NCBI GenBank assembly: GCA_046317875.1
Contig: JBKCVN010000026.1
Coordinates: forward strand, 12,617-76,616
Direction: 5' to 3'
DNA length: 64,000 nucleotides
DNA from: Alphaproteobacteria bacterium
GTDB lineage: Bacteria > Pseudomonadota > Alphaproteobacteria > UBA7879 > UBA5542
The translations under genes and the position numbers were made by a program. Of the stretch, positions 1 to 19,170 are shown piece after piece (position 1 is the stretch's first letter; each line of letters begins with the position of its first letter). The notes beneath the pieces were generated by a model. That model did no database searches. It saw only the letters and a program-made list of their open reading frames with translations, and was not told the DNA's origin.

Positions 1-3
1 TTA

Positions 4-702
4 TTGGTGATTAATAAACCCGCGGGGTTGGTGGTGCATCCGGGTGCTGGAAATAAAAAGGGCACCTTAGTGAATGCGTTGTTGGGGCATTCTGAAGGCC
101 ATTTGTCGGTGGTGGGGGGCGTGAAGCGGCCTGGTATCGTGCATCGGTTAGATAAGGATACCAGCGGACTGATGGTGGTGGCCAAGACGGATGCGGCGCA
201 TCAAAAACTATCGGCCCAATTTTCCGATCGCACCCTAAGCCGTACTTACCTAGCCTTTGTGGTGGGCCAAATTATGCCCGAAGGCACCATTGATCAAAAC
301 ATCGGACGCAGTTCCCACAATCGGCAAAAAATGGCGGTTAGACGGGTGGGGGGAAAAGAGGCCATCACCCACTATAAGGTGCTGGAGTATTACGGTGAAC
401 ACGCGGTGATTGCCTCGCTGGTGGAATGTCGATTAGAGACGGGGCGTACCCATCAAATTCGGGTGCATTTGGCCAATGCGGGCCATCCCTTGATTGGGGA
501 TCCGGTATATGGTCGGGCCAAAAGCAACCCCATGTTGAAGCGATTATGGGCCGAGAATCCGGGTGTGTGGATAGATGACCGGCAGGCCTTGCATGCGGCA
601 GCGATTAAGTTTACGCATCCCGCCACGGGGGAAAAAATGAAGTTTGAAATCCCCTTTCCCCCTGATTTGGAAGCCTTGCAAAATATTTTAGAAGGGGCCT
701 GA
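4..702 (+). CDS. rluD: RluA-family 23S rRNA pseudouridine synthase (RluD-like), 5' end cut by window edge
   Basis: HRLDKDTSGLMVVAKT catalytic Asp motif and a C-terminal GDPVYG motif typical of RluA/RluD; the ORF runs to the window start. Confidence 0.8.
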   Translation: MVINKPAGLVVHPGAGNKKGTLVNALLGHSEGHLSVVGGVKRPGIVHRLDKDTSGLMVVAKTDAAHQKLSAQFSDRTLSRTYLAFVVGQIMPEGTIDQNIGRSSHNRQKMAVRRVGGKEAITHYKVLEYYGEHAVIASLVECRLETGRTHQIRVHLANAGHPLIGDPVYGRAKSNPMLKRLWAENPGVWIDDRQALHAAAIKFTHPATGEKMKFEIPFPPDLEALQNILEGA

Positions 703-1628
703 TGAACAGCGCGCCTAAAAATATTCTTGTGATTCAGCCCTTGCCGGGAATTGGCGATCTTTTTTGGTTTGATGCGGTGCTGCAAAGCCTAAGTTCTTTT
801 TATAAAACGCCTGTGACGTTGTTGACTAAACGCCAAAGTCAAGCCCAGGCCCTGTATGGCGGCAATAATTATGTTCAGGACGTTTTGTGGATTGAACGGC
901 CGGGGCTGCATGAGGGGCTATGGGGGATGTGGCGGTTGGCCCGAACCTTAAAACAAAAAAAATTCTCCCATGTTTGGATTTTACATAAAAGTTGGCGCTA
1001 TCGATGGGTCTGCCGATGGGCGGGCATTCAACATATTATGGCCTATCCTGTTGAGAAGAAATGGTTACAGCTGCACCCCATTCAACGGGCCGAGCAACTG
1101 CTGAAAAACAATGGGGTGCCTTTGTTAAAGGATCCTTTGTTTCCCATTTCTGAGGATGCCCGCAGGCATGTGGAACAGATCTTAAAAATCCATAAAAAAC
1201 CCTGGGTGGCGTTGGGGATTGGGGGATCGGAGCCTTCGAAAAAATGGGGACATACGTATTGGGAAGATTTGGCTGTGTGGTTGAGCCATCATAAAAAAGT
1301 ATCGGTATTTTTGTTGGCGGGGGCTCGGGAACACACCGAGGCTGAAAAGATGGTTTCATCCATTCAAAAAAAGGGGGGTGAGGCCGTGGCACTCACCCAG
1401 TTTTCCTTGCAACAGTCCCTGGCGTTTTTAGCCGAAACAGAGTTGGTGATCGCTAATGATACGGGCATGATGAACGGAGCTGCCGTTTTAAATAAGCCTG
1501 TTATTGGCTTATTTTTAGGGACTGCGCCGCTTCGCTATCGGTCTTGTTTAAAGCCCATTCAGGTGTTACCTGGTGGAAAAACAATTTCTGTGGATCAGGT
1601 TCAAAAAGCTGTGACGATGATTTTGTAA
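702..1628 (+). CDS. Glycosyltransferase family 9 (LPS heptosyltransferase-like)
   Basis: N-terminal ILVIQPLPGIGDLFWFDAVL and a C-terminal ELVIANDTGMMNGAAVLNKPVIGLFG-like GT9 signature; start overlaps the rluD stop (ATGA). Confidence 0.6.
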   Translation: MNSAPKNILVIQPLPGIGDLFWFDAVLQSLSSFYKTPVTLLTKRQSQAQALYGGNNYVQDVLWIERPGLHEGLWGMWRLARTLKQKKFSHVWILHKSWRYRWVCRWAGIQHIMAYPVEKKWLQLHPIQRAEQLLKNNGVPLLKDPLFPISEDARRHVEQILKIHKKPWVALGIGGSEPSKKWGHTYWEDLAVWLSHHKKVSVFLLAGAREHTEAEKMVSSIQKKGGEAVALTQFSLQQSLAFLAETELVIANDTGMMNGAAVLNKPVIGLFLGTAPLRYRSCLKPIQVLPGGKTISVDQVQKAVTMIL

Positions 1629-1640
1629 TACACTGATATG

Positions 1641-2201
1641 TCAATAAAATGACGTTTCAGCCAAATAAGATTGAAGATGTTGTAACCGTTGTTGGAACCG
1701 TAATAAAGCCAACTCGGTTTGAACTAAATATTCAAAAGTAGGCAGGTCACGATCATCTGCCAAGGTATCCAAAATATTTTTTACATTATCTTGTTCTAAG
1801 ATCTTGGTCATGTCCCGCCATTTTTTTTCGATTCGCGCTTCATTTTTGTGGATGGAAGTGGAAGAGGAGTGACAAGATCTATGAAAAATCTTTGAAATGG
1901 CTACTTGGGGACCGTCTTTTAAAATATGATTCGAGACCTGAAAATAATAATTGGCCGCCCTATGCATATCGGAAGAAATGAACCCTGAAAGTTCTAAAAG
2001 ATGAAGACCCGTTCCCCGCCATAACCAAGGCTTTTTAACTTTTAAATGATATTTCTTTTCCATCTCGTGTAAGAAATAATACCGATTTCTCTCGATGGGA
2101 TTTCGAAAGAAAGGGTTGAAAGGGGGTGACCTGAGTGGCAGGATCGACTGTTGAGCGAAATGTTTAGATTTTTTTTGCGCAGTGCGAAATTTTTTTGGCA
2201 T
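1641..2201 (-). CDS. Hypothetical protein, possible truncated carbohydrate sulfotransferase-like
   Basis: FFRNPIERNRYY resembles the RNP(I/L)DR 3'-PAPS-binding motif of sulfotransferases. No N-terminal PKxGTT motif is present. It sits in a very AT-rich context next to an LPS glycosyltransferase. Confidence 0.3.
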   Translation of the reverse strand: MPKKFRTAQKKSKHFAQQSILPLRSPPFNPFFRNPIERNRYYFLHEMEKKYHLKVKKPWLWRGTGLHLLELSGFISSDMHRAANYYFQVSNHILKDGPQVAISKIFHRSCHSSSTSIHKNEARIEKKWRDMTKILEQDNVKNILDTLADDRDLPTFEYLVQTELALLRFQQRLQHLQSYLAETSFY

Positions 2202-2452
2202 AAGTTGTCTCCTATTTTAAGTGTCTGCCTGTTAAACAGCCTAAGTACATAATATAAAAAAAAGTAATTGTAAATAAAAAAATCGATATTTTTTATCAAT
2301 TATTTAAATTTATTGTTTTTTATTTTTTTCTGAATATTTAAAATTTAATTTTTACACGGCATTTTTTCTGACTATTCGCAAACTTGATATTTTTTTAAAA
2401 CCCCATTGAATGAATCCCCCCTTCTTGAGTATTATCGGGCAGGGGGTTTTTC

Positions 2453-3337
2453 ATGCTTAAAATAATAGGAATACTGATGCTGCAAGGGGTGATGTTGAAT
2501 GGAACGGCGGCCACAAAAGAAATTTTCCCTACGGCCCAGAAAATCCTCACTCAGCTGCGCCACCAACACTATGCCCAGGTGCCTTTTCGGTATGACCACT
2601 GGTTTTGTACCCAGGCCATGGAATCGTTCTTTAAATTTGTAGATTTGCCCGAAACTGAGCGGCATAAGTTTAATGGCAAACTATCCAGTAAACATCGTCG
2701 GGGTGATTTAGGGCTGGTTTATCGGCAAAAATCCCAGGGGGACGGGTATAACGATAGTAAGTGTTTTTTCCATTATCACCCCAAATTGCGGGCCTTACAT
2801 GAACAAGAAATTCAGAAAACCCCCGTGGTGAAAGATTTTATGGACCGGGCTGATTTGATTTGGCAGGAAGTGTATCACACGTTGGACTTAACCCTTACCC
2901 AATTCGAATATCCATTTCCAGGAATAAAAGCTAAGGTTTTAAACACACAAGAGCCCCATATTTTGGTGCGTTTTTTGCGGTATGATATTCAAACCCCGGG
3001 CCATTATTTAGCCAAACCCCATTTTGATGCGGGATCCATGACCTTTGCGATCGCTGAAAGCAAGCCAGGGTTGCGGCTGGGGAGTGGCCCTGACGATCTG
3101 AAATTGGTGGAACATTACGACAAGCAAGCCTTATTTTTCCTGGCTGCCAATATTGGGCAGTTAATAGACCCCACCCCCCTGAAGCCCGGTTGGCATGATG
3201 TGATTCATGTGGGCGAAAGACCATCGGATAATAAATACGAACGGTGGGCTTTAGTGGCCTTTATTGATGGGCATAACACCACGGGGGCGCCGGAAACGGT
3301 GACGCATAAGTGGCGGGTGGATAAGAAGCTGTTGTAG
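2453..3337 (+). CDS. 2OG-Fe(II) oxygenase superfamily protein (isopenicillin-N-synthase-like)
   Basis: HFDAG (HxD) followed by WHDVIHV (distal His) and ERWALVAF (RxS-like) with jelly-roll spacing. Confidence 0.5.
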   Translation: MLKIIGILMLQGVMLNGTAATKEIFPTAQKILTQLRHQHYAQVPFRYDHWFCTQAMESFFKFVDLPETERHKFNGKLSSKHRRGDLGLVYRQKSQGDGYNDSKCFFHYHPKLRALHEQEIQKTPVVKDFMDRADLIWQEVYHTLDLTLTQFEYPFPGIKAKVLNTQEPHILVRFLRYDIQTPGHYLAKPHFDAGSMTFAIAESKPGLRLGSGPDDLKLVEHYDKQALFFLAANIGQLIDPTPLKPGWHDVIHVGERPSDNKYERWALVAFIDGHNTTGAPETVTHKWRVDKKLL

Positions 3338-3565
3338 AAAAAACCTGATTTTTTCCTATAATTTAGGTACACTTTTCTTTGACTTTTATTAATCTAAAGA
3401 ACCCTAAAAATTAGAACGAAAAAAGCATTTTCCTGACCCTTCATAGTTAGAGTATTCGGTATTATATTTTCTATTTGACAAATACAAGGTAAACGCTGTA
3501 CTTCATGTAACTGTATTAAAAAATATGAATTTTTGTTTGTTTTGTATTAAAGAAAGAGTTTTAAA

Positions 3566-5344
3566 ATGAGAAAAAAATTTCTAGGCTTAACCATGTCCTT
3601 AAGTTTGGTGATGTCTTTGCTTTGTAATGCCCATGTAGAGTATGACCAAACATCCCCTGAAAAAGATATGTACTTCCAAGTAGAGACAGCACTAAGGGGT
3701 ATGAGAAATAAGATAGTGACTGCAATAACAGATCCATACCATGACACCATAGAATATTATTGGGCTTCCGCAGAACATAAAAAGACTTTTAATGAGACAA
3801 TTGATGGCCTGGCCCAGACTGCCATTTCTCGCATTCAATCAATTTCTGGTTGCAAAAGATCAGATGTAGCTATTAACTTAATTCAAAATTTTGCAAACGA
3901 TATAAAAATACAGGCCAAACCTTTTTTACAGCCAATTGATCAATTAAGAGGGGAGCTTTTGAAAAGTATATCTTGCTATGATGAGGGAAAAGCTACACCC
4001 GCTGAGAAAGAACAGTATGGGAAAATAGTTTATATGAAAAGAAAAGATGATGGTACCTTGTTTTCGGCTTCTGAACCACTGAAGGATGTATGGAAAAGGG
4101 TGGCACAGATAACGGCAGATGCAGATCTTTTTTTGAATACAAATCGCGTTTTATCTGATGCTCATAATATGACCCTTTTTGCTTTTTTGATGGGGGATCA
4201 AGATGTTAGGCATTCGGGAGAACCTTTGGCTATCTATCCGGCTTTTTATAATTACCTTGATCGGTTAAGTAATGGTACATTAAACCCAGAAGTAATACGT
4301 TTTGCATCAGTTTCCTTATATGAAGCTAGAGTGGGGGTTAAAGATAAAGAGACGGTTGACTGTTATGAACCCTCTGTGTTTGAATCTGTTTCTGAAGAAA
4401 AACCTGATGATAGTCAAATCGATTCGAATCATGTTAATATTAAAAAATCAGTGAAACTTTCAAAGCTGTTGGGGATATCTGAAGATGACCTGAATAAGAT
4501 TCGAGCAGCAAATCCTCCTTATAAATTCTCTAGCCCAGAATTAAAAGCCAAAGAAGAGGAACAAAAACGTTTATTAGAGGAAAAACAACGTGCCGAAGAA
4601 GAAGCCCGTCGTTTAGAAGAACAAAAACGTGCCGAATTACAAGCCCGTGCCGAATTACAAGCCCGTGCCGAAGAAGAAGCCCGTCGTTTAGAAGAAAAAC
4701 GCCTTCAGGAGAAGAAGGATGCGACCATCAATGCACCTGTTATGACAAGGATTCTTTTCCAGGATAATAGGCAAGAAATGAAGAAAATTTCCGATAAAAT
4801 GAAAGAAATTGAGCTTCTTCATTGTGATAAGGATGAGCACGGTCGGAAAAAAGAGAGGAAAAATCTTTTGGGAAATCCATTAGTTGTTAAAGAGATGATT
4901 ATGGATTATTCCCGAGGATATGAACAAGTAGGCCCCAAGGCTTTTTTTGATACTATTTTTGAAGCTTTCTTAAATCCTATGATGGGAACAGTTTTAAATG
5001 CTTCTATCCCCCAAGATTGTTCTACTTTAAAAGCATGGCTTTTACAGAAATATAAAGATTTTGGTGGAGAAAATCCAGATCAAACAATTAAATATATTTT
5101 TGATAAATTTAATAAGGGTGGTTTCGGGTATAACGTTCTTGTTCCGGCCTTAAGCCACTTCCATGGTTTTGTCACTTTATATGGACAAGACTCTAGATAT
5201 CAAGACGATATTGAGACTGTCACCATAAATGTTATGAGCATGCTGCAAGAGCAACTTGAGAAATGTGGTGATGGCGCCCAGGGCCGAGGATTTTTGATTG
5301 ATTGGGCCATCATTCAAGCGATCCAAAAAGGGGTTGGGGCCTAA
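3566..5344 (+). CDS. Secreted coiled-coil repeat protein, candidate effector
   Basis: Signal peptide MRKKFLGLTMSLSLVMSLLCNA. The central region is an E/Q/R/A-rich coiled coil with in-frame tandem repeats (EEEARRLEE, RAELQA). The gene is AT-rich relative to its neighbours. Confidence 0.55.
   Translation: MRKKFLGLTMSLSLVMSLLCNAHVEYDQTSPEKDMYFQVETALRGMRNKIVTAITDPYHDTIEYYWASAEHKKTFNETIDGLAQTAISRIQSISGCKRSDVAINLIQNFANDIKIQAKPFLQPIDQLRGELLKSISCYDEGKATPAEKEQYGKIVYMKRKDDGTLFSASEPLKDVWKRVAQITADADLFLNTNRVLSDAHNMTLFAFLMGDQDVRHSGEPLAIYPAFYNYLDRLSNGTLNPEVIRFASVSLYEARVGVKDKETVDCYEPSVFESVSEEKPDDSQIDSNHVNIKKSVKLSKLLGISEDDLNKIRAANPPYKFSSPELKAKEEEQKRLLEEKQRAEEEARRLEEQKRAELQARAELQARAEEEARRLEEKRLQEKKDATINAPVMTRILFQDNRQEMKKISDKMKEIELLHCDKDEHGRKKERKNLLGNPLVVKEMIMDYSRGYEQVGPKAFFDTIFEAFLNPMMGTVLNASIPQDCSTLKAWLLQKYKDFGGENPDQTIKYIFDKFNKGGFGYNVLVPALSHFHGFVTLYGQDSRYQDDIETVTINVMSMLQEQLEKCGDGAQGRGFLIDWAIIQAIQKGVGA
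4550..4712 (+). repeat. In-frame tandem nucleotide repeats inside the CDS (coiled-coil EEQKR/AEEEARRLEE/RAELQA units)
   Basis: gccgaattacaagcccgt occurs twice in tandem; gccgaagaagaagcccgtcgtttagaagaa occurs twice. Confidence 0.7.
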
Positions 5345-5370
5345 AACATTATACAATGTGTTACAGAAAA

Positions 5371-5390
5371 GGCGCCTAAGGGCGCCTTTT
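5371..5390. terminator. Bidirectional rho-independent terminator between convergent genes
   Basis: ggcgcc-taag-ggcgcc stem-loop with an A-run upstream and a T-run downstream (aaaaggcgcctaagggcgcctttt). Confidence 0.65.
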
Positions 5391-5425
5391 CATTTTTCAT
5401 AAAATTAACTTGGGTGTACAACCCA

Positions 5426-6328
5426 TTAATTTTTTGATGTGTTTGATTTCATGATTAATCTGGCAGCCCGCAACTTTTCAAAATCATCACCCGCGTGATA
5501 AGACGACCGGGTTAGGGGCGAGGCCGAGACCATCAGGAACCCTTTCCCGCGGGCCATGCGTTCATAATCTTGGAACTCTTCTGGTGTGGCATATCGCATG
5601 AGGGGGTGGTGTTTGGGTGTGGGTTGAAGATACTGACCAATGGTCATGAAATCAACATCTGCCGCCCGCAAATCATCCATCACTTGATAAATCTCGGGCT
5701 TTTCTTCGCCCAAGCCCACCATGATGCCCGATTTGGTAAAGATGGTGGGGTCTAGCTGCTTGACGCGATGCAGTAAATTCAACGAGTGGAAATAGCGGGC
5801 GCCGGGACGCACGGTGGCATACAGGCGCGGCACGGTTTCCAGGTTGTGGTTATACACATCGGGCTTGGCTGCCACAACGATTTCCAGGGCCCCAGGTTTA
5901 CGCAAAAAGTCGGGCGTTAGAATTTCAATGGTGGTGTGGGGGGATGTTTTTCGAATGGCCCGAATGGTTTGGGCAAAGTGCTCGGCGCCTCCATCGGGCA
6001 AATCATCCCGGTCGACGGACGTGATCACCACATGGGCAAGATTCAATTTTTTCAGCGCCTCGGCCACACGTTCGGGCTCGTGGGGGTCTAACAAATCGGG
6101 GCGCCCGGTTTTAATGTTACAGAAGGCACAGGCGCGCGTGCACACACTGCCCAGAATCATGATGGTGGCGTGTTGTTTGGCCCAGCACTCGCCAATATTG
6201 GGGCAGGCGGCCTCTTCACACACCGTATTCAGCTTGGCATCCCGAATCAACTGCCGCGTAGTGTGATACTCGGCCGAGATAGGGGCTTTAACTTTCAGCC
6301 AATCAGGTTTTGCAAGTTTTTCTGTCAT
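5426..6328 (-). CDS. lipA: Lipoyl synthase
   Basis: Radical-SAM CxxxCxxC (CTRACAFC) plus the N-terminal [12 protein letters not shown] cluster motif. Confidence 0.9.
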
Positions 6329-6337
6329 GATCCCTTA

Positions 6338-7735
6338 CTAAAAATGCAATGCTTTCCCATAGGCATCCAACACCGCCTCGTGCATCATTTCCGACAACGT
6401 TGGATGCGCAAAGACAGTATGCATCAATTCAGCTTCGGTGGTTTCCAGGGTCTTGCCCACCACGTAGCCTTGGATGAGTTCGGTGACCTCGGCGCCGATC
6501 ATGTGGGCACCCAAAAGCTCGCCTGTTTTGTCATCAAAAATGGTTTTGATGAGTCCTTCCGCATCGCCCAAGGCAATGGCCTTACCATTCGCCATATAAG
6601 GGAAACGACCCACCCGAACTTTATGGCCTTTTTGTTTGGCAGCGGCTTCAGTAAGGCCCACGCTGGCCACCTGGGGCAAGGAATAAGTGCATCCGGGAAT
6701 ATTGGATTTTTTCAAGGGGTGCACATGGGGTTGGTTGGCAATTTTTTCCACACAAATGATGGCTTCATGGCTGGCCTTATGCGCGAGCCACGGGGCCCCG
6801 GCCACATCGCCAATGGCATAGACGCCTGGTTCATCGGTGGCACACCATTCATTGGTTTTGATCTGGTTTTTTTCTACCTTGACCTTTGTGTTTTCAAGGC
6901 CCAAGTTTTCCGTATTGCCCACAATACCCGTGGCCACAATGACGCGGTCCACCGTTAGGGTGGTTATTTTGCCTTTATGGTCTAATGTGGCTTTTACGGA
7001 GTCTTTTCCTTTTTCCAGGCTTTTAACCGTGGTGCCCGTATGAATCTTCATGCCTTGTTTTTCAAACATTTTTTGCGCATTGGCCGAGATTTCGGCGTCT
7101 TCCACCGGCAGAATGCGGTCTTGAATTTCCACCACGGTGACTTCGGCCCCCAGCGTACGGTAAAAGCTGGCAAATTCCACCCCAATGGCGCCCGATCCCA
7201 CCACCAATAAACTTTGGGGCATGTGTTCGGGGGTCATGGCTTCTTTCGAGGTCCAAATAAGATGACCGTCTGGTTCAAGGCCGGGCAAAACCCGGGGACG
7301 TGCGCCTGTGGCCAAAATGATATGAGACGCGGTTAAAACCTGTTTGTTGGCACCCTCCGTCACTTCCAGTTTTTTTTGACCCAATAATTTGCCATAGCCT
7401 GGGATGAGGGTAACTTTATTTTTTTTCATAAGATGGCTGATACCACCCGAGAGTTGGTGTGATACTTTCCGAGAGCGCTCGACAATTTTTTTGATATCAA
7501 ATTTAATAGAAGAGGCCGACAACCCAAATTCATCTAAATGATGCATCAGGTGATAAATTTCAGCCGAGCGTAATAATGCCTTGGTGGGAATACATCCCCA
7601 ATTAAGACATACACCACCCAACTTATCTTTTTCCACCAGGGCTGTTTTTAAGCCTAACTGGGCCGCCCGAATGGCTGCCACATACCCACCGGGCCCACCG
7701 CCCACCACAATAAGATCAAAAGACTGAGACATCAT
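6338..7735 (-). CDS. lpdA: Dihydrolipoamide dehydrogenase (E3)
   Basis: GGGPGGYVAAIRAAQLG FAD motif and the GGVCLNWGCIPTK redox-active disulfide. Confidence 0.9.
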   Translation of the reverse strand: MMSQSFDLIVVGGGPGGYVAAIRAAQLGLKTALVEKDKLGGVCLNWGCIPTKALLRSAEIYHLMHHLDEFGLSASSIKFDIKKIVERSRKVSHQLSGGISHLMKKNKVTLIPGYGKLLGQKKLEVTEGANKQVLTASHIILATGARPRVLPGLEPDGHLIWTSKEAMTPEHMPQSLLVVGSGAIGVEFASFYRTLGAEVTVVEIQDRILPVEDAEISANAQKMFEKQGMKIHTGTTVKSLEKGKDSVKATLDHKGKITTLTVDRVIVATGIVGNTENLGLENTKVKVEKNQIKTNEWCATDEPGVYAIGDVAGAPWLAHKASHEAIICVEKIANQPHVHPLKKSNIPGCTYSLPQVASVGLTEAAAKQKGHKVRVGRFPYMANGKAIALGDAEGLIKTIFDDKTGELLGAHMIGAEVTELIQGYVVGKTLETTEAELMHTVFAHPTLSEMMHEAVLDAYGKALHF

Positions 7736-7743
7736 ACGACTCC

Positions 7744-8991
7744 TTACACCAACAATAGGGCTGGATTTTCAATATATTTCTTGAAGGCTTGCAACAACTG
7801 ACTACCCACGCTGCCATCCACCACACGGTGATCTACGGATAGCGAGCATGTCATCACTGTGGCAACGGCCAGTTGTCCGTTTTTCACCACCGGGCGCTGT
7901 TCACCGGCACCCACGGCCAGGATGCATCCTTGGGGGGGATTGATGATGGCTTCGAATTGTTTAATGCCGAACATACCTAGGTTCGAAACGCTGAAGGACC
8001 CGCCTTGGAATTCTTCGGGTTTTAATTTGCCTTCTTTGGCCTTTTGAACCAGGGTTTTGACTTCCTGGGAAATGGACAACAGGGATTTTAGGTTAGCCAT
8101 TTTTACAATGGGGGTAATAAGGCCATCTTCAATGGCCACCGCCACTGAAATATCGGATGTATTGTAATATCGAATGGTTTGACCCATCCACGAGGCATTG
8201 GCTTCGGGCACATCACGCAAGGCCAACGCCACGGCTTTTAACACGAAATCATTCACCGTTACTTTGACATTTAAATGGGTATTGATGGATTGACGGGCGG
8301 ACATCAGGGCATCCAGTTCGCAATCAACGGTTAGGTAAAAATGGGGTACCGATTGTTTGGATTCGGTCAGGCGTTGGGCAATGACGCGACGCATGTTGGA
8401 TACGGGTTTGTCCTCATACAAAGGACCATGATGCACGGGGGCGTGGCCTAGGCCCGCAGAGCCGGGCACAAAGTTTTCGATATCTTGTTTGATGATGCGA
8501 CCATGGGGGCCCGAGCCTTGGACCTGGCGCAAATTAATGTGTCGTTCCGTGGCCAACCGTCGGGCCAGGGGGGATGCCACAACGCGACCTGTGGACATGG
8601 TCATGCTAGGTGCGGGCGCTGAGGAAACAGGTGCAGCTGGGACACTGGGTGCAACAGGTGCAGGTGCAGTGACCACAGGTTCTTGTTTCGGTGCTTCGGG
8701 GGCCGCTGCTGCTGTGAATTTGTAACTGTCAAGGGCGCTTTTGTCTTCGCCTTTTTCCAGAATCAGCGCAATAGGGCTGTTCACTTTTACATTATCGGTG
8801 CCTTCGGGAATAAGGATTTTTCCTAAGATGCCTTCATCCACCGCTTCCACTTCCATGGTGGCTTTATCGGTTTCGATTTCTGCAATGACTTGGCCGGCCG
8901 TAAGGGCATCGCCTTCTTTTTTATGCCACTTCACCAAGTTACCTTCGGTCATGGTGGGGGACAAGGCGGGCATTAGAATTTCAATAGGCAT
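7744..8991 (-). CDS. pdhC: Pyruvate dehydrogenase E2 dihydrolipoamide acetyltransferase
   Basis: Lipoyl domain (IETDKATMEV), Ala/Pro linker, and a catalytic domain with SLSVDHRVVDG. Confidence 0.9.
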   Translation of the reverse strand: MPIEILMPALSPTMTEGNLVKWHKKEGDALTAGQVIAEIETDKATMEVEAVDEGILGKILIPEGTDNVKVNSPIALILEKGEDKSALDSYKFTAAAAPEAPKQEPVVTAPAPVAPSVPAAPVSSAPAPSMTMSTGRVVASPLARRLATERHINLRQVQGSGPHGRIIKQDIENFVPGSAGLGHAPVHHGPLYEDKPVSNMRRVIAQRLTESKQSVPHFYLTVDCELDALMSARQSINTHLNVKVTVNDFVLKAVALALRDVPEANASWMGQTIRYYNTSDISVAVAIEDGLITPIVKMANLKSLLSISQEVKTLVQKAKEGKLKPEEFQGGSFSVSNLGMFGIKQFEAIINPPQGCILAVGAGEQRPVVKNGQLAVATVMTCSLSVDHRVVDGSVGSQLLQAFKKYIENPALLLV

Positions 8992-9012
8992 ATAAGACCT
9001 CCGATTGGGTTA

Positions 9013-9502
9013 AAGATGGATTGCTTTGTCGGACTTTTGGTCCTCCGCGCAATGACGATAAAAGATGGCCTTCGTCATTGCGAGGGAATCCGAAGGATGA
9101 ACGAAGCAATCCACCTTTCTTAATAACAAACCTAATAACAAATGAATTCATACAAATCTTTCCAATCTGGGTTCATGCCGGCGATCAATTCAATCTTCTT
9201 CTGGCGAGATCCACCTTTAAGCTGTTTCTCTCGGGTGATCGCATCAAACATGGTTTCAAAAAATTCGTAATAGACCAGATTTTTGCAACCATACTTTTCT
9301 GTAAAAGAGCCTTTTATTTCTGCCTCTCGATGTTGAAAAACGCGATGCGTCAAACTAGATGTTACTCCTACATACAGAGTGCCTCTGTATCCGTTTGCCA
9401 TTATGTACACAGCAGGCTGCTTTTTCATAACACTTAACGACCCATACACAAACAAGATGGTTTGCTTTGTCGGACTTTTGGTCCTCCGCACAATGACGAT
9501 AG
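9013..9502. mobile_element. GIY-YIG nuclease cassette bounded by ~45-bp direct repeats, inserted between pdhB and pdhC
   Basis: Near-identical repeats at 9013-9060 and 9456-9502 (gatgg(a/t)ttgctttgtcggacttttggtcctccgc(g/a)caatgacgata). An imperfect palindrome (cgcaatgacga...tcgtcattgcg) lies after the first copy, and a third partial copy (attgctttgtcg) at 9508-9519. Confidence 0.45.
9132..9428 (-). CDS. Small GIY-YIG nuclease family protein (YhbQ/UPF0213-like)
   Basis: YIMANGYRGTLYVGVTSSLTHRVFQHRE (GIY...YVG) and the conserved KNLVYYE...REKQLKG. The likely start is MKKQ at 9428 rather than the upstream ORF start. Confidence 0.75.
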   Translation of the reverse strand: MKKQPAVYIMANGYRGTLYVGVTSSLTHRVFQHREAEIKGSFTEKYGCKNLVYYEFFETMFDAITREKQLKGGSRQKKIELIAGMNPDWKDLYEFICY

Positions 9503-9540
9503 GGGAATTGCTTTGTCGCTTCGCAAAAGAAAACCATTCC

Positions 9541-10518
9541 TTACCTATATGTTACTTTTTTTACCGCTTCTATGATGTCAGCTACTTGCGGCAGGGCCAT
9601 TTTTTCAAGGTTAGCTGCATAGGGTAAGGGCACATCTTTGGCGGATACACGCACTACAGGGGCATCTAGATGATCGAAGGCGTGCTCCATCATCTTAGCT
9701 GCAATTTCGGCCCCAAAGCCACAGGTGGGCCAGGTTTCTTCTACCGACACCAACCGGTTGGTTTTTTGTACTGATTCTACAATCAAATCCGTATCCAAGG
9801 GCCGCAGGGTACGCAGATCAATTACTTCCGCATCAATGCCTTCTTGGGCCAACAGTTCGGCGGCTTGAAGGGTTTTACCCACCATCAAAGAGAATGCCGT
9901 GATGGTTACATCTTTCCCTGGACGAACAATTTTACCCTTTCCAATGGGCACCACATGATCGCCCTCGGGGACCTCAAACTTTTGCCCATAGAGTAATTCA
10001 TTTTCCAAAAAAATCACGGGGTTGGGGTCACGGATGGCCGCTTTTAAAAGCCCCTTCGCATCGGCTGCATCATAGGGCGCAATGACTTTTAACCCAGGGC
10101 AGTGACTGTACCAACTGGCAAAACATTGAGAGTGTTGGGCCCCCACACGAGAGGCTGGTCCATTGGGGCCACGGAAAACAATAGGGCAACCCATTTGACC
10201 ACCAGACATGTACAATGTTTTGGCTGCCGAGTTTACGATTTGGTCGATGGCCTGCATCGCAAAGTTAAAGGTCATGAACTCGACAATAGGTTTTAATCCC
10301 ATAAAGGCAGCACCCACCCCAAGCCCTGCAAAACCATGCTCGGTGATGGGGGTATCGATGACCCGCCCAGGTCCAAATTCTTGCAACAACCCTTGGGTCA
10401 CTTTATAGGCGCCTTGGTATTCGGCTACTTCCTCGCCCATGACAAAAACATCAGGGTCTTGGCGCATTTCTTCCGCCATAGCTTCACAAAGGGCTTCACG
10501 AATCGATAGAATAGGCAT
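9541..10518 (-). CDS. pdhB: Pyruvate dehydrogenase E1 beta subunit (no N-terminal lipoyl domain)
   Basis: Transketolase-like pyrimidine-binding and C-terminal domains; 325 aa. Confidence 0.9.
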
Positions 10519-10529
10519 GGGAGATTTCC

Positions 10530-11543
10530 TTAATTTTCAATAAGAACATCTGTATATAATTCAGATGCATCGGGTTCGGGTGAATTTTGTGCAAATTCAG
10601 CAGACTCTTTAATAGCGTCTTTAACGCGCTCGGCCACCTGTTCAAAGTCGGCTGCCGTGCAGATTTTTTCTGCCAATAAAATTGATTCCATATTGGTTAA
10701 TGGATCATTAGTGGCGCGATACGTTTCAACTTCTTCTTTGGTGCGATACTTCGCTGGGTCAGACATGGAGTGTCCCCGATAGCGATAAGTGTCCATCTCG
10801 AGAATATAGGGACCCTTGCCCGAACGAATGTGATCGAAGGCTCGCTTTGCGGCCCGTTGAACTTCGAAAATATCCATTCCATTTACCTTTTCCCCAGGAA
10901 TACCATAGGGTTCGCCACGGGTATAAAGGTCTTTGGTGGTGGTATGGCGTGCGACAGCGGTTCCCATGGAATATTGATTATTTTCCACCACGTAAAGAAC
11001 GGGCAGTTTCCAAAGGGCTGCCATATTATAGGCTTCGGCCACCTGGCCTTGGTTCGAGGCCCCATCGCCCATATAGGTGACGGATATGGCGCCCGTGTTC
11101 TTGTATTTGTGCGCAAAAGCCATGCCCGTTCCCAGGGGAACTTGGGCGCCTACGATACCGTGGCCCCCGAAAAAGTTTTTCTCGCGGCTGAACATATGCA
11201 TTGATCCGCCCTTACCCTTGGAGACACCACCGATGCGCCCCGTCAGTTCGGCCATAATCCCGTTGGCCGGCATCCCACAGGCCAGCATATGACCATGGTC
11301 ACGATAGGCCGTAATAATGGTGTCGTTTTCTTTTTGCATGGACTGAATGCCCACCACTACTGCTTCTTGACCAATATATAAATGGCAAAAGCCCGCAATC
11401 AACCCCATCCCATAAAGTTGGCCTGATTTTTCTTCAAAGCGACGAATCAGCAACATATCTTCGTATAGTTTTAATAGTTGCTGTTTATTTTGATTGTTTA
11501 CTTTTGAGTTCATTGCAATATCTGTTTTTTCTTTCACTGACAA
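10530..11543 (-). CDS. pdhA: Pyruvate dehydrogenase E1 alpha subunit
   Basis: TPP-binding region [23 protein letters not shown] and a [11 protein letters not shown] phosphorylation-loop-like motif. Confidence 0.9.
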
Positions 11544-11598
11544 TTTTTGATCCTCATTATTCCACAGGATGAGGCCTAAGGCTAGCCCCTTAGATATC

Positions 11599-13095
11599 TC
11601 ATTCCTTATTTGATAATTTTTGGCTTAAAAGATCGTTTACCACGGCAGGATTAGCCTTGCCTTTTGTTTCTTTCATGACTTGTCCCACAAAGAACACAAA
11701 AAGTTTGTCTTTCCCCGATTTGTATTGAGCCACCATATCTGGGTTGTTGTCCAAAACCGTTTGGATAATCCGTTCCAGGGCCCCCGTATCCGTAATTTGT
11801 TGCAATCCTTTTTCAGAGACAATGGATTGCGGAGATTTGGATGATGACCATGCATCAGCAAATACTTCCTTGGCAATGCGCCCAGAAATAACATCTTTTT
11901 GAATCAGATTCACCAAGTCGGCCAGATGTTCAGCCGACACGGGGGTATCATGAATGGATTTATTTTCTTTGTTCAACAAAGCAAAAAAATCGCCGGATAG
12001 CCAATTGGAAATTAGTTTGGCAGACTGGAGGTCTTTATTTTTCTGCCACCCTTCGGTATGATTTACCGCTTTTTCATAAAAATCAGCGATGTCACTATCT
12101 TCTACCAATAGATCTGCATCATAAGGGGTAAGCCCATATTCCGCCATAAAACGGGATTTCTTTTGATCAGGCAATTCGGGCAGATTTCTTTTAATGCTGT
12201 CTAGGTAGTCATCCGTCAAAATCACAGGCAACAGATCTGGGTCTGGGAAATAGCGATAATCCATGGCCGTTTCTTTCGAGCGCATGGAGCGGGTTTCCCC
12301 CCGGTTAGGGTCGTATAACCGTGTTTCCTGAACCAACGTTCCGCCTTCTTCCAAAATTTCAGCTTGGCGCCGGGCCTCATATTCGATGGCTTGGCCAATG
12401 TAGCGGATCGAGTTCACGTTTTTAACCTCGGCCCGGCATCCCCAGGGTTCACCTGGGCGATTCACCGAAATGTTGACGTCTGCGCGCATGCTGCCTTCAT
12501 CCATATTTCCATCGCTGGTGCCCAAATAGCGCAGGATCAGTCGCAGCTTTTTCATAAAGGCCATGGCATGTTCGGGGGTGCTCATGTCGGGGCAGCTGAC
12601 GATTTCCATCAAGGCGGTTCCCGACCGATTGAGGTCGATACACGTTTTTTTAGGATGCAAATCATGGATGCTTTTGCCAGCATCTTGTTCCAGGTGGATG
12701 CGCTCGATCCGCACACGGTGGGTGGCCCCGTCCTGCAGGTCTAGATCTAAATACCCTTCCCCTACGATGGGGTGATACAACTGGCTGATTTGATAGCCTT
12801 GGGGCAAGTCAGCATAAAAATAATTCTTCCGGTCAAACATGGAAAATTTATTAATTTTTGCATTAATCCCATAGCCCGTTTTGATGGCTTGCTCGATACA
12901 CTTTTTATTCAGGACTGGCAACATCCCCGGCATGGCGGCGTCCACCAATGACACTTTGCTGTTAGGGTCGGCGGCAAATGATGTGGGGGCCGAGGAAAAT
13001 AATTTAGAGGCGGAGGTAACCTGAGCATGGACTTCCAGCCCGATGACCACATTCCACGGACCAGATTTTGTATGGAGCCAATAATTATGTGACAT
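11599..13095 (-). CDS. gatB: Asp/Glu-tRNA amidotransferase subunit B
   Basis: GatB family, full length, with the C-terminal YqeY-like domain. Confidence 0.9.
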
Positions 13096-14567
13096 TAGAG
13101 AGCCTCGATAATCGGATGTTTGAACTGAGCCGCCGTTTCAAGGGCAAAAGCGGCATTAAAAAGTCGATCTTCGCTGAGCATTGGACCCAGCAACTGCATA
13201 CCTAAGGGCAGTCCTTTTTCCGAAAAGCCCACGGGGACAGAAATGGCGGGGATTCCCGCAAGGTTAGCCGCCACAGTGAAAACGTCTTCCAAATACATGG
13301 CCAAGGGGTCCATGGACGGATCATTTAAAGCAAACGCATCCGAGGCCGTGGTGGGGGTTAGAATAAAGTCTACTTTTTGGAAAGCGGATTGGAAATCATT
13401 TAAAATTTTCCGACGCACTTTTTGGGCCCGAAGGTAATAGTCTTCATAACATCCAGCGGATAGGGCATGGGTCCCAATCATGATGCGGCGTTTGACTTCA
13501 TCCCCAAAGCCGGCGGTGCGGCTTCTTTCATACATTTCGTCCAGGGTTTGACCCTCGACCCGAAGGCCATAGCGAACACCATCGTACCGCGCCAGGTTCG
13601 AGGAAGCTTCAGCGGGGTTAACAATATAGTATACCGCCAGGCCATATTCGGTATGCGGCAAGGAAATATCAACAATTTCAGCGCCCATTTCTTTGAACCA
13701 TGTGGCCGATTGTTGCCATAGACGGGCAATGTCAGGGTGGAGACCATCGAGATTGTATTCCTTAGGAATTCCAATTTTTAATCCCTTTACGTTGCCAGTT
13801 AAGGACTGTGTGTACTGGGGAACCGCATGGGGAAGACAGGTGGAATCCTTCGGGTCATGACCGGCCATATGCTCGAGCACAAGAGCTGCGTCCCTGACGG
13901 TGCGGGCCATGGGCCCGGCGTGATCTAAAGAAGAAGCAAAAGCTATAATGCCATAGCGTGAACACCGTCCATAGGTGGGTTTAATGCCCACAATACCGCA
14001 GTGACTGGCAGGCTGACGAATGGATCCCCCCGTATCGGTTCCCAGAGCCACCAACGAAGAACCAGCCGCCACCGAGGCGCTGGACCCACCCGAGGAGCCC
14101 CCAGGGGTTAAATCCGTATCATCATTTTTTCTTTTCAAGGGATTAATACTGGGGCCAAAACAGCTGGTCAGAGTGGATGACCCCATGGCAAATTCATCCA
14201 GGTTCGTTTTGCCCAGTGAAATGGCGCCCGCTTGGTTTAATTTATGGGTAACGGTGGATTCATATGTGGGAATAAAATTTTCTAGTATTTTCGAGCAAAT
14301 GGTGGTGCGAATATCTTTGGTACAGAAAATATCTTTGGTGGCCAAAGGGAGGCCTTCCAAAGGGCGAGCTTCGCCTTTTGCATAGCGTTTGTCCGATTCT
14401 TTGGCTTGTTCACGAGCCTGTTCGAATGTATCCAAAACATAGGCATTCAGATGAAAGGTTTCTTCTGCTCGTTGAATATAGGTATTGATTACCTCGGAGG
14501 TACTTATTTCTTTTTTGACCAGCTTCTGCCGAAGGTGATGAAAGTCTAATTTTAATAGGGATACCAT
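13095..14567 (-). CDS. gatA: Glu-tRNA(Gln) amidotransferase subunit A
   Basis: Amidase signature [14 protein letters not shown]; overlaps the gatB start. Confidence 0.9.
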
Positions 14568-15132: not shown

Positions 15133-15822
15133 ATGGGGTGTTCTGGAGAAAAAAGAAGACCCTGTTTCTTAGAGGTGCAGAAAGATCAAAGAGGGTTTTC
15201 TTATCATTCAAGATCTATGGATTGGCACAATATCTCTTTAAATCAGGGGTATGCGGCTCCGAAATATGATTCTGGGCCCCGTTATGATGAACTGAATGTT
15301 TCCCCAGGTGATCTTATAGATGTAAAGCTGTTACAAGAAAAAGCCCAACAGGGGGATGCACAAGCTCAGTATAATTTAGGTGTATTTTATGATTGGGGGC
15401 ATGAATCAGATCCGTCTAAGGCCATGGAATGGTTCAAAAAAGCTAGGGAAAAAGGACACATTTTAGCCCAATTTAATTTAGGGTGTATCTATGCCAACAG
15501 GCAAAGCTCTCGAAAGGAGATGGATCAAAAGAACCGTGTAAGGGCCATGAAATGGTTCAAAAAAGACGCAATTCAAGAATATCAAGAAGCACAGTATAAT
15601 CTTGGCATGGCCTATGTAATAGGTCATGGAGTTGTAAAAGACCATTCCAAGGCTAAGATATGGCTTCAGAAAGCCGCAGATCAAGGGCACATTATCTCAA
15701 AGTATAATCTTGGGGTTATGTATGCTAATAGGTTGGGGGGTAAAAAAGATCAGGTCAGATCTTTAAAATTATTTTGGGAGGTTGCTCTAGAAGGTTTAGA
15801 GGGCTTTGCCAAAGCCCCTTAA
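15133..15822 (+). CDS. Sel1-repeat protein, apparently frameshifted (signal peptide in an upstream ORF at 15069)
   Basis: Four or more Sel1/TPR-like repeats (AQYNLGVFYDWG..., AQFNLGCIYAN..., AQYNLGMAYVIGHGV..., SKYNLGVMYAN...). A signal-peptide-like ORF at 15069-15269 is in the -1 frame relative to this ORF and overlaps it across an A6 run. Confidence 0.6.
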   Translation: MGCSGEKRRPCFLEVQKDQRGFSYHSRSMDWHNISLNQGYAAPKYDSGPRYDELNVSPGDLIDVKLLQEKAQQGDAQAQYNLGVFYDWGHESDPSKAMEWFKKAREKGHILAQFNLGCIYANRQSSRKEMDQKNRVRAMKWFKKDAIQEYQEAQYNLGMAYVIGHGVVKDHSKAKIWLQKAADQGHIISKYNLGVMYANRLGGKKDQVRSLKLFWEVALEGLEGFAKAP

Positions 15823-18504: not shown

Positions 18505-18651
18505 TTTTATATATAAGAATATATCATTTTCTGCAATTTTTCTGTATTGAAAGATCCTGTAAGCTTCTTTTTAAATAGCAATATATAAAAAATGACAAAA
18601 CAAAAAAAATCTGTTAATTCAATCATGTGACTAAATATAAGGAGATTTGTG

Positions 18652-19170
18652 ATGGAATGGATACAAAAGGCACTGCTCGTATTAATTGTCTGTATTGGAT
18701 CGGTTTTTGGAGCGTTCGATGAAGAAAGCGTTGGAGCTTCTAAGCTGGAATCAAAACTCAATCTTGATAGAAAAACTTTTGAAGACACATATATCGACCA
18801 GGGTAATTCTTTAAAAACGTCATGTGATTATGGAGTGCGAGAGGCTAGAAGCCGTGTGGTTATTGTAACACAGTGGGAAAGTCTTTTCGGGGTAAAATCA
18901 GATCTAGAAGTTAAAATGGCATTGCGCACAGTTTATGAAGCCCATAAAGAAATCCCTGAAGTTGATTTCTTATTTTTCTACATTGTAGGTTTAGAAAAAA
19001 AATCAGGTGCTTATACTCAGATTAAAAATTTGGGAGCAGTCAATGAAGAAGAAGCAGAAACTGTGTCACAGAATTTTGAATTAAATATTGATGCTGTGAC
19101 CCCTAAGAACTTAAGAGATGACCAAGTTTGTCTTTTGCTGCATAAAAGTAAGCTATACGAACAAGAATAG
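18652..19170 (+). CDS. Hypothetical secreted protein
   Basis: Signal peptide MEWIQKALLVLIVCIGSVFGA. An AAGGAG Shine-Dalgarno motif lies 8 nt upstream of the ATG. No recognisable domain. Confidence 0.4.
   Translation: MEWIQKALLVLIVCIGSVFGAFDEESVGASKLESKLNLDRKTFEDTYIDQGNSLKTSCDYGVREARSRVVIVTQWESLFGVKSDLEVKMALRTVYEAHKEIPEVDFLFFYIVGLEKKSGAYTQIKNLGAVNEEEAETVSQNFELNIDAVTPKNLRDDQVCLLLHKSKLYEQE

What the first reader, a model, noticed from the sequence alone, without database searches (positions are those of the whole stretch)
3340..5420. AT-rich gene for a large secreted coiled-coil protein with internal tandem DNA repeats
The 592-aa protein has a clear signal peptide. Its central block EEQKRLLEEKQRAEEEARRLEEQKRAELQARAELQARAEEEARRLEEKRLQEKK is encoded by exact tandem nucleotide repeats (an 18-mer x2 and a 30-mer x2 at about 4600-4700). 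The gene and its long AT-rich flanks differ compositionally from the neighbouring lipA/pdh genes, and it is bounded by a strong bidirectional terminator. Repeat-bearing coiled-coil secreted proteins are typical effector or surface proteins of intracellular bacteria, and the repeats make the length variable.
Basis: partly seen in the sequence, partly recalled or inferred. Interest (0 to 1): 0.55.

Follow-up and report, generated by a model that had tools for sequence, protein, structure and literature searches.

The report
Secreted orphan protein with variable spacer
This is a real gene of an uncultured Holosporales-like (protist-symbiont type) bacterium for an exported, unusually fast-evolving two-domain protein of no known family, whose central charged helix changes length through DNA repeats; that fits a host-facing protein, but its function is unproven.

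Summary
ORF 3566-5344 (+) encodes 592 aa with a Sec-type signal peptide. Its central block is encoded by an exact 33-nt repeat x2 and an 18-nt array, the only strong tandem repeat in the 64 kb. GC3 is 0.30 against 0.48-0.61 in the neighbours, and a conserved hairpin terminator sits before convergent lipA.

The nearest genomes are Holosporales-like. The family is almost an orphan: a profile search of 1.84 billion proteins found two orthologue clusters and one distant marine "Rickettsiales" homologue with the same architecture. No Pfam, NCBIfam, PHROG or PDB match was found, and both AlphaFold models were unusable.

Against a close relative whose housekeeping genes are 93-99% identical, this protein is 62.5% identical. 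dS is ordinary (0.36) and dN/dS is 0.60, against 0.02-0.21 in the neighbours. Spacer length differs between lineages (76, 57 and 69 aa), each with its own DNA repeats.

The "coiled coil" looks more like an ER/K single alpha-helix: 61% charged, 41 favourable against 3 unfavourable charge pairs, and no heptad seam. Low GC3 is shared by all four family members and synteny is conserved, so recent transfer is unlikely.

Best reading: a Sec-exported, host- or envelope-facing protein with a length-tunable rigid spacer. Moderate-to-low interest.

The parts
3338..3565 (+). AT-rich (25% GC) upstream spacer. It holds promoter-like sites: TAGAAA-16-TATAAT at 3335-3362, and a TTGACA at 3475-3480 inside a block conserved in L001.
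   Evidence: The promoter assignment is a consensus match only; the number of matches in the region is not above the shuffle expectation.
3550..3558 (+). Purine-rich ribosome-binding-site-like AAGAAAGAG, 7 nt before the ATG.
   Evidence: Sequence read directly. The 24-nt block around the start codon is identical in L001.
3566..5344 (+). CDS of 592 aa plus stop codon; orphan family.
   Evidence: Orthologues are intact in L001 (568 aa) and L088 (579 aa).
3566..3631 (+). Predicted Sec/SPase I signal peptide, residues 1-22, with cleavage at CNA|HV.
   Evidence: There is no conserved lipobox Cys. The mature start [VI]xY[DA]Q is conserved in all four members.
3632..4531 (+). N-terminal domain, residues 23-322. 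Conserved motifs include DADLFL..NR...HN.TLFAFLMGD.D, SNH.N.K and NPPY. It is the most variable part of the protein.
   Evidence: For residues 216-322 dN/dS is 1.45 (CI 0.87-3.15). For residues 94-215 dS is 0.96.
4532..4723 (+). ER/K-type charged helical spacer, residues 323-386.
   Evidence: AF2 predicts a single helix over residues 323-386, which includes its best-scored blocks (pLDDT 65-77 over 331-380). The spacer is 61% charged, with 41 favourable against 3 unfavourable i/i+3,4 charge pairs (z 5.8) and no heptad periodicity. Codon use is monotone: CGT, GCC, TTA.
4556..4708 (+). Tandem DNA repeat block: exact 33-mers at 4589-4621 and 4664-4696, and an 18-nt array at 4628-4684.
   Evidence: A 60-nt indel relative to L001 falls inside this block.
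4724..5341 (+). C-terminal domain, residues 387-592. It is predicted all-helical and is the most conserved part (74% identity to P0001).
   Evidence: dN/dS is 0.50 (CI 0.34-0.76).
5264..5299 (+). Near-invariant C-terminal motif C-G-x-G-A-x-G-R-x-F-L-I (CGDGAQGRGFLI).
   Evidence: Nine of its twelve residues are invariant in all four members, including the distant P0003. Its meaning is unknown.
5366..5391 (.). Hairpin terminator shared by the convergent orf592 and lipA genes.
   Evidence: Free energy is -21.6 / -19.6 kcal/mol, and the hairpin is conserved in L001.

Best explanation
The gene encodes a lineage-restricted protein that is exported by the Sec pathway and cleaved by signal peptidase I. 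The mature protein has a roughly 300-aa N-terminal domain and a roughly 200-aa helical C-terminal domain. A stiff charged single alpha-helix (ER/K type) of about 9 nm holds them apart.

The spacer was built by amplification of a short DNA unit and is still being remodelled the same way. Slipped-strand or unequal recombination between the repeats therefore changes its length in frame. The estimated lengths are 6.6, 8.5 and 9.3 nm in the three lineages.

The protein acts outside the cytoplasm, most likely at the cell surface or released toward the eukaryotic host. Its N-terminal domain is under diversifying or relaxed pressure, and the C-terminal domain carries the conserved activity or binding site.

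Shown here: the gene, the export signal features, the repeats, the length variation, the fast non-synonymous evolution, the narrow distribution and the conserved position.

Inferred: the single-helix state of the spacer, the final location, and the host-facing role.
For: Signal peptide features are conserved in all four members. LepB (signal peptidase I) is encoded in the window.

The architecture signal peptide / N domain / low-complexity spacer / C domain is kept even in the distant P0003. There the spacer is Ala/Pro/Gln-rich instead, so what is conserved is a spacer, not its sequence.

The charge pattern fits a single alpha-helix. There are 41 favourable against 3 unfavourable pairs (z 5.8). 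The best heptad register has only 28% strong hydrophobic residues at a/d. The block resembles AEEEXXX-type single-helix designs (PMC5347031). Predicted coiled coils have turned out to be single helices before (PMC4571873).

Spacer lengths are 76, 57 and 69 aa, with lineage-specific DNA repeats. Codon use in the spacer is monotone.

Protein identity to L001 is 62.5%, against 93-99% for housekeeping neighbours. dS is ordinary at 0.36. dN is 0.215 and dN/dS is 0.60 (CI 0.48-0.76), against 0.02-0.21.

The organism is Holosporales-like. The same low-GC3 class in the window holds Sel1-repeat proteins and other signal-peptide orphans.
Against: There is no functional homology of any kind. There is no usable structure: pLDDT was 45.6 and 40.9.

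No anchor, beta-barrel, lipobox or known secretion motif explains how the protein would leave the periplasm.

Positive selection is not demonstrated. The only segment with dN/dS above 1 has a CI of 0.87-3.15, so relaxed constraint would explain the numbers equally well.

The single-helix call rests on my own simple scoring, not on an established predictor or on experiment.

The host association of this particular organism is inferred from relatives only.
Confidence: 0.5

Rival explanations
1. It is a periplasmic envelope component. The two domains would bind inner-membrane or peptidoglycan partners and outer-membrane partners. The rigid helix would act as a strut or ruler across the periplasm, working like TolA domain II or Lpp.
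For: There is a Sec signal but no feature for outer-membrane passage. A helix of about 9 nm plus two globular domains is of periplasmic dimensions. Weak compositional hits to TolA and PcsB fall in the spacer. The position next to a GT9 heptosyltransferase-family gene is conserved.
Against: Envelope struts are usually conserved and widespread. This protein has dN/dS 0.60 and only four relatives among 1.84 billion representatives. The TolA and PcsB hits have E-values of 0.5-1 and are compositional. The spacer length changes by 30% between very close relatives.
Confidence: 0.25
2. The central block is a true dimeric or trimeric coiled coil, making the protein an oligomeric fibre.
For: It is a long uninterrupted predicted helix. 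It contains Leu and Ala at 27% combined. The hydrophobic moment at 100 degrees is marginally high in the window copy (5% of shuffles reach it).
Against: The best heptad register has 28% strong hydrophobic residues at a/d. The 3.5-residue periodicity is not significant: 11% of shuffles reach it in the window, 15% in P0001 and 98% in P0005. The 6-residue RAELQA unit spreads Leu around the helix. The block is 61% charged, with near-exclusive opposite-charge i/i+3,4 pairing. P0003 replaces the block with an Ala/Pro-rich linker.
Confidence: 0.2
3. It is a recently acquired foreign (horizontally transferred) AT-rich island gene.
For: GC3 is 0.30, against 0.48-0.61 in the neighbours. The flanks are AT-rich and the family has no wide phylogenetic distribution.
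Against: The gene sits in the same rluD-GT9 ... lipA position in three lineages, including one whose GT9 is only 59% identical. dS to L001 is 0.36, inside the range of the neighbours (0.15-0.59). GC3 of 0.29-0.31 is kept in all four members. No match was found in the plasmid or viral collections.
Confidence: 0.07
4. It is a gene in decay: relaxed constraint with no remaining function.
For: dN/dS is high. One metagenomic copy (L003) has a frameshift after codon 79.
Against: dN/dS is significantly below 1 (CI 0.48-0.76; none of the 2000 bootstraps reached 1). For the C-domain it is 0.50. The ORFs are intact in the window, L001/L002 and L088. Motifs are invariant out to a homologue of only 24% identity. 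The L003 frameshift is absent from the cluster-mate (90% or more identical) P0005.
Confidence: 0.05

Closest known systems
ER/K charged single alpha-helix (SAH) linkers, e.g. myosin VI/X, INCENP, CAF-1 KER (PMC5347031, PMC4571873, PMC4183817, PMC10335832)
   Same: The block is E/R/K/A/Q-rich with dense i to i+4 salt-bridge pairing and no hydrophobic seam. It sits between two functional domains as a semi-rigid spacer. It is easily mistaken for a coiled coil.
   Different: Here the linker is in a Sec-exported bacterial protein. It is encoded by exact tandem DNA repeats, and its length varies between close relatives. The monomeric state was not tested.
Periscope proteins: variable-length bacterial surface stalk proteins (PMC8201768, PMC9704523)
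   Same: Length variation is generated by highly identical tandem DNA repeats in a rod-like region. That region separates a functional domain from the rest of the protein.
   Different: Periscope stalks are long arrays of folded domains in wall-anchored proteins, mostly Gram-positive. Here there is a single helix of about 60 aa, no anchor, only 2-3 short units, and a Gram-negative symbiont.
Ehrlichia/Anaplasma tandem-repeat protein (TRP) effectors (PMC8112483, PMC3417381)
   Same: They are lineage-specific, repeat-bearing, fast-evolving proteins of obligate intracellular alphaproteobacteria with no conserved domains.
   Different: TRPs are type I secretion substrates without Sec signal peptides, and their repeats are acidic, Ser-rich and disordered. 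There is no sequence similarity.
Holospora obtusa periplasmic proteins of the infectious form: 63-kDa PRP1 and the 89-kDa invasion-tip protein (PMC9866348)
   Same: They are novel-sequence proteins with a signal peptide. They are stored in the periplasm of a Holosporales symbiont and then exposed or released to the host during infection. This gives a precedent for Sec-exported host-acting proteins in this group.
   Different: No homology was detected: the exhaustive profile search returned nothing beyond the four family members. PRP1 has a D5_N DNA-binding domain, which is absent here.
TolA domain II / Lpp-type periplasmic helical spacers
   Same: They are long charged or Ala-rich helices spanning the space between two binding domains in the cell envelope.
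   Different: TolA has an N-terminal membrane anchor and a conserved C-terminal domain III. Lpp is a lipoprotein trimer. Here the NCBIfam TolA match has E 0.99 and is compositional, and there is no lipobox.

Membership tests
Sec/SPase I-exported proteins | A positively charged n-region, a hydrophobic h-region of 10-15 residues, and small residues at -3/-1 of the cleavage site | tested here: met
   The window has MRKK + FLGLTMSLSLVMSLL + C-N-A|H. The hydropathy peak covers residues 4-15 and there is no other hydrophobic segment. The layout is conserved in P0001, P0005 and P0003. This was done by inspection; SignalP was not available.
Bacterial lipoproteins (SPase II) | A lipobox [LVI][ASTVI][GAS]C with an invariant Cys at +1 | tested here: not met
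   Only the window copy has a Cys (SLLC, with a poor -1 residue). P0001 has Gly at that position and P0005 has none.
Charged single alpha-helix (ER/K, SAH) | High E/K/R content with a dense excess of opposite-charge i/i+3 and i/i+4 pairs | tested here: met
   The window spacer is 61% charged, with 41 favourable against 3 unfavourable pairs (z 5.8 against shuffles). P0005 has z 5.1 and P0001 z 2.8.
Charged single alpha-helix (ER/K, SAH) | A monomeric, stable helix in solution | not testable with these tools
   It needs circular dichroism plus SEC-MALS or AUC on residues 323-386. AF2 predicts one continuous helix with pLDDT 65-77 over most of it, but that cannot give the oligomeric state.
Canonical coiled coil | Heptad periodicity with hydrophobic a/d positions | tested here: not met
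   The best register has 28% strong hydrophobic residues at a/d (44% if Ala is counted). The 3.5-residue periodicity is not above shuffles: the fraction of shuffles reaching it is 0.11, 0.15 and 0.98. MARCOIL and DeepCoil were not available.
Periscope proteins | Length variation between strains through highly identical tandem DNA repeats | tested here: met
   There is a 60-nt indel against L001 inside the exact repeat. L088 has a different 66-nt x2 repeat.
Periscope proteins | A stalk made of repeated folded domains, plus a cell-surface anchor | tested here: not met
   The spacer is a single helix of about 62 aa. There are no LPXTG, beta-barrel or lipobox features and no Pfam domains.
Type V autotransporters | A C-terminal beta-barrel translocator | tested here: not met
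   There is no Pfam autotransporter hit. The C-domain is predicted all-helical, though in low-confidence models.
Ehrlichia-type TRP / type I secretion effectors | No Sec signal, a C-terminal type I secretion signal, and acidic Ser-rich repeats | tested here: not met
   A Sec signal is present. The repeats are E/R/K/A-rich and helical.
Any curated protein family (Pfam, NCBIfam, PHROGs, PDB sequences) | A significant profile match | tested here: not met
   The best E-values are 0.03-1, and the matches fall mostly in the low-complexity spacer or are otherwise insignificant.

The most novel reading that the evidence does not exclude
The protein founds a new family of Sec-exported host-interaction proteins of Holosporales-like symbionts. 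In this family a repeat-encoded, length-tunable ER/K single helix would act as a molecular ruler. It would set the reach, or the intramolecular coupling, between a diversifying recognition domain and a new C-terminal catalytic or nucleotide-binding domain marked by the invariant C-G-x-G-A-x-G-R-x-F-L-I motif.
Probability: 0.15. Interest if true: 0.55.

Novelty: new member of a known kind. Interest (0 to 1): 0.3.

Why it matters
How Holosporales-type symbionts of protists interact with their hosts is largely unknown (PMC11909080). Candidate exported proteins that evolve fast while sitting in a conserved position are practical starting points for that question.

This one also gives a compact natural example of a bacterial ER/K-type spacer whose length is changed by DNA repeats. 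It could be tested directly with peptides and with strain comparisons.

As it stands, it is one more lineage-specific orphan with no assigned activity.

Tried and rejected
- **Family and structure-sequence searches.** Pfam, NCBIfam, PHROGs and PDB-sequence searches, with single sequences and with profiles, gave only compositional hits.
- **AlphaFold2.** The full-length run (3 sequences) gave pLDDT 45.6 and the C-domain run (4 sequences) gave 40.9. A Foldseek search of PDB with the full model gave a best E of 0.44 and TM 0.13, which is meaningless. I therefore did not run a fold search on the C-domain model.
- **Word-index homologue searches.** Searches with the C-domain alone and with the 4-sequence alignment failed even to recover known relatives. 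The likely causes are saturation by low-complexity words or a tool quirk.
- **Collection scans.** Scans of genome contigs, of metagenome contigs (twice), of viral contigs and of plasmids for relatives found nothing.
- **Paralogues.** There are none in the window.
- **Motif ideas rejected.**
  - PTP C-X5-R loop: the spacing here is C-X6-R, and the context is helical and C-terminal.
  - Fic HxFx(D/E)GNGRxxR: the His is not conserved (Lys in the window, Asn in P0003).
  - Clan CD His-Gly...Cys dyad: the Gly is not conserved and there are no hydrophobic strands before the catalytic-type residues.
  - Rossmann GxGxxG: the pattern fits, but it lies 25 residues from the C-terminus between two predicted helices.
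  - None of these is supported by a profile hit.
- **Sample origin.** A literature search for SRR10823795/8 found nothing.
Full report
**1. What is there**

ORF 3566-5344 (+) encodes 592 aa. Its start codon follows a purine-rich AAGAAAGAG. The 24 nt around the start are identical in the closest relative.

The N-terminus is MRKK, then the hydrophobic stretch FLGLTMSLSLVMSLL, then CNA|HV. It has the three regions of a Sec/SPase I signal peptide and is the only hydrophobic segment in the protein. The Cys is not conserved: P0001 has Gly there and P0005 has none. It is therefore not a lipoprotein.

The central block is encoded by two repeat types:
- an exact 33-mer at 4589-4621 and 4664-4696;
- an 18-mer array, two exact copies with the period continuing exactly for 27 further bases. 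TRF reports 3.2 copies at 92%.

Nothing else in the 64 kb reaches a TRF score of 80.

The hairpin at 5366-5391 lies between this gene and convergent lipA. It folds at -21.6 kcal/mol on the + strand and -19.6 on the - strand, with z-scores of -5.9 and -5.0. It is conserved in L001.

The gene has GC3 0.302. Its housekeeping neighbours have 0.48-0.61, and the window averages 0.446 with sd 0.080. The gene is second lowest of 51 ORFs but not unique.

**2. Organism and relatives**

The window is an ordinary alphaproteobacterial chromosome segment. It carries rluD, a GT9 glycosyltransferase, lipA, lpdA, pdhCBA, gatBA, spoT, lepB, rnc, era, recO, parC, ntrYX, trkA, hflX, tig, glyS and priA.

By GatB, the nearest species-level genomes are:
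- an unclassified alphaproteobacterial MAG (71%);
- an uncultured Holosporaceae MAG (66%);
- then Odyssella and Finniella (57-58%).

The organism is therefore Holosporales-like. All characterised members of that group live in eukaryotic hosts, mostly protists (PMC11909080).

The protein is almost an orphan.
- A word-index search of 5.8 billion clusters found two relatives.
- A profile HMM read against all 1.84 billion representatives found the same two plus one weak hit, P0003 (E 4e-5).
- No Pfam, NCBIfam, PHROG or PDB-sequence match exists.

The relatives are as follows.
- **P0001** (568 aa, 63% identity) lies on a 75-kb contig. Its gene order is the same: rluD, GT9, a 186-aa ORF, a 294-aa ORF, this gene, then lipA.
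- **P0005** (579 aa, 43% identity) is the intact form of P0002. It comes from a metagenome sample labelled GROS21 and lies in the same rluD-GT9 ... lipA interval, with the 294-aa gene on the other side.
- **P0003** (548 aa, about 24% identity) is annotated as a hypothetical protein of a marine "Rickettsiales bacterium" MAG. It has the same architecture:
  - a signal peptide;
  - the mature start [VI]xY[DA]Q;
  - an N-domain with GDQ[DE]VT.SGK;
  - a low-complexity linker, here Ala/Pro/Gln-rich;
  - a C-domain ending in the near-invariant C-G-x-G-A-x-G-R-x-F-L-I.

**3. Evolutionary behaviour**

I compared the window with L001.
- Eight housekeeping proteins are 93-99% identical.
- The three orphans of the interval differ widely: the 186-aa and 294-aa ORFs are 85% and 88% identical, but this protein is only 62.5%.
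- Nei-Gojobori estimates give it an ordinary dS of 0.36. The neighbours range from 0.15 to 0.59.
- Its dN is 0.215, roughly 5 to 50 times that of the housekeeping neighbours.
- Its dN/dS is 0.60 (bootstrap 95% CI 0.48-0.76), against 0.02-0.21 for the neighbours.

The gene is therefore vertically inherited and still constrained, but evolves exceptionally fast at the protein level.

Rates differ along the gene.

| Residues | Result |
|---|---|
| 216-322 | dN/dS 1.45 (CI 0.87-3.15): suggestive of positive selection, not significant |
| 94-215 | dS 0.96, against 0.14-0.21 in the adjacent N-terminal segments: possible recombinant mosaic, or an alignment effect |
| 387-592 (C-domain) | dN/dS 0.50 |

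GC3 is 0.29-0.31 in all four family members, and in each case it is below the local housekeeping genes. Together with the conserved synteny, this argues against recent horizontal transfer.

In the window, the same low-GC3 class contains two Sel1-repeat proteins and several orphans with signal peptides. This is the usual composition of the accessory, host-facing gene set of intracellular bacteria.

**4. The repeat block**

The segment from NPPY to NAP is 76 aa in the window, 57 aa in L001 and 69 aa in L088.
- The window has 60 nt more than L001, exactly within the repeated unit.
- L001 has only a degenerate 18-nt x2.2 repeat.
- L088 has an unrelated 66-nt x2.0 repeat.
- Codon use inside the block is monotone. 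Arg is CGT in 9 of 10 codons, against 1 of 21 elsewhere in the gene. Ala is GCC in 9 of 10, and Leu is TTA in 7 of 8.

The whole spacer therefore descends from amplification of a short DNA unit and is still turning over.

Its sequence does not look like a coiled coil.
- 61% of its residues are charged.
- The best heptad register has 28% strong hydrophobic residues at a/d.
- The 3.5-residue periodicity is not above composition-preserving shuffles.
- There are 41 opposite-charge i/i+3,4 pairs against 3 like-charge pairs (z 5.8; P0005 gives z 5.1).

This is the signature of ER/K charged single alpha-helices. Such helices bridge two domains as semi-rigid spacers, and they are commonly mis-predicted as coiled coils (PMC5347031, PMC4571873, PMC4183817).

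As a helix, the block would measure about 9.3 nm in the window, 6.6 nm in L001 and 8.5 nm in L088. In P0003 a non-helical Ala/Pro-rich linker fills the same place. That fits a spacer role rather than a sequence-specific one.

**5. Mechanism**

*Shown.* The protein has export-signal features and consists of two domains. A repeat-encoded helical spacer of variable length separates them. It evolves fast, occurs in few lineages, and keeps a conserved chromosomal position.

*Inferred.* It acts outside the cytoplasm, at the surface or released toward the host. The N-domain would be the variable recognition part, and the C-domain would carry the conserved site.

The Sec signal argues against type VI or type IV delivery, so "effector" in that sense is not supported. 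Precedents for Sec-exported, host-acting proteins in this group are the Holospora periplasmic proteins (PMC9866348). No homology to them, or to anything beyond the four family members, was detected.

The main rival is a purely periplasmic strut. The dimensions fit, but the rate and distribution do not. A true coiled coil, recent transfer and gene decay are each disfavoured by specific results (see the rival explanations).

**6. Verdict**

The finding is a new, very small protein family of a familiar kind: a lineage-specific, repeat-bearing exported protein of a host-associated bacterium.

The useful additions from this stage are:
- the quantified rate contrast with the neighbours;
- the demonstration of spacer-length variation;
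- the re-reading of the "coiled coil" as an ER/K single-helix spacer;
- the rejection of recent transfer.

Function remains open because both structure predictions failed.

Noticed in passing
window 8992-9540: There is a roughly 500-nt insertion between pdhC and pdhB. L001 has only a 41-nt gap there. The insertion holds a 119-aa ORF (9132-9491, -) with GIY-YIG-like motifs and a 47-nt imperfect palindrome at 9012-9118. It looks like a small selfish element inside the pdh operon.
   Followed up: partly
L001 11252-11941 vs window 6329-6337: The close relative carries an extra 229-aa PF04199 cyclase gene (GC3 0.31) between lipA and lpdA. In the window those two genes are 9 nt apart.
   Followed up: no
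window 2453-3337 (+) and 1641-2201 (-): Two further orphans travel with the gene in all three lineages. The 294-aa protein is 77% identical to its L088 orthologue, which makes it more conserved than GT9 (59%). By eye it shows an HxD...H...R pattern reminiscent of 2OG-Fe(II) oxygenases, but it has no Pfam or PDB hit.
   Followed up: partly
window 15133-15822, 16022-17371: Two adjacent low-GC3 Sel1-repeat proteins (E 5e-30 and 8e-114). They are a eukaryote-like repeat class common in intracellular bacteria.
   Followed up: partly
window 18649-19170, 46436-47887, 51212-51718, 53097-54743, 56007-56726: Further low-GC3 orphans with signal-peptide-like N-termini and no significant Pfam family. One has a Ser/Pro/Glu-rich tail (46436). 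One is Cys-rich with a sub-threshold 'late nodulin' hit (56007).
   Followed up: no
window 60820-61863 (-) and 62537-63406 (-): A paralogous pair (30% identity, E 7e-18) carries GG[MT]SGGP[IV]F, which resembles the trypsin-family active-site serine motif. Neither has a Pfam hit.
   Followed up: partly
window 1-14567 vs L001: Synonymous divergence between the two genomes is uneven. dS is 0.15 for gatA, gatB and lpdA, but 0.57-0.59 for pdhA and pdhB. Inside orf592 it ranges from 0.14 to 0.96. This suggests a recombination mosaic.
   Followed up: partly
window 3632-3649 (residues 23-28): The motif [VI]xY[DA]Q sits directly after the predicted signal-peptidase site. It is conserved in all four family members, including the 24%-identical P0003, although the surrounding sequence varies. 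It could be a sorting or maturation signal, or the first element of the fold.
   Followed up: no
L001 733-1125; L088 1162-1554; L088 15974-18804: The relatives carry a DUF4280 gene upstream of the region (a PAAR-like type VI spike family, from my own knowledge). L088 also has four pentapeptide-repeat genes beyond lipA and an S8 peptidase inside the variable interval.
   Followed up: no
L003 1575-1811: One metagenomic copy of the orthologue has a frameshift after codon 79. The copy on the longer contig L088, which falls in the same cluster at 90% identity or more, is intact. The frameshift is either an assembly error or a real pseudogene allele.
   Followed up: partly
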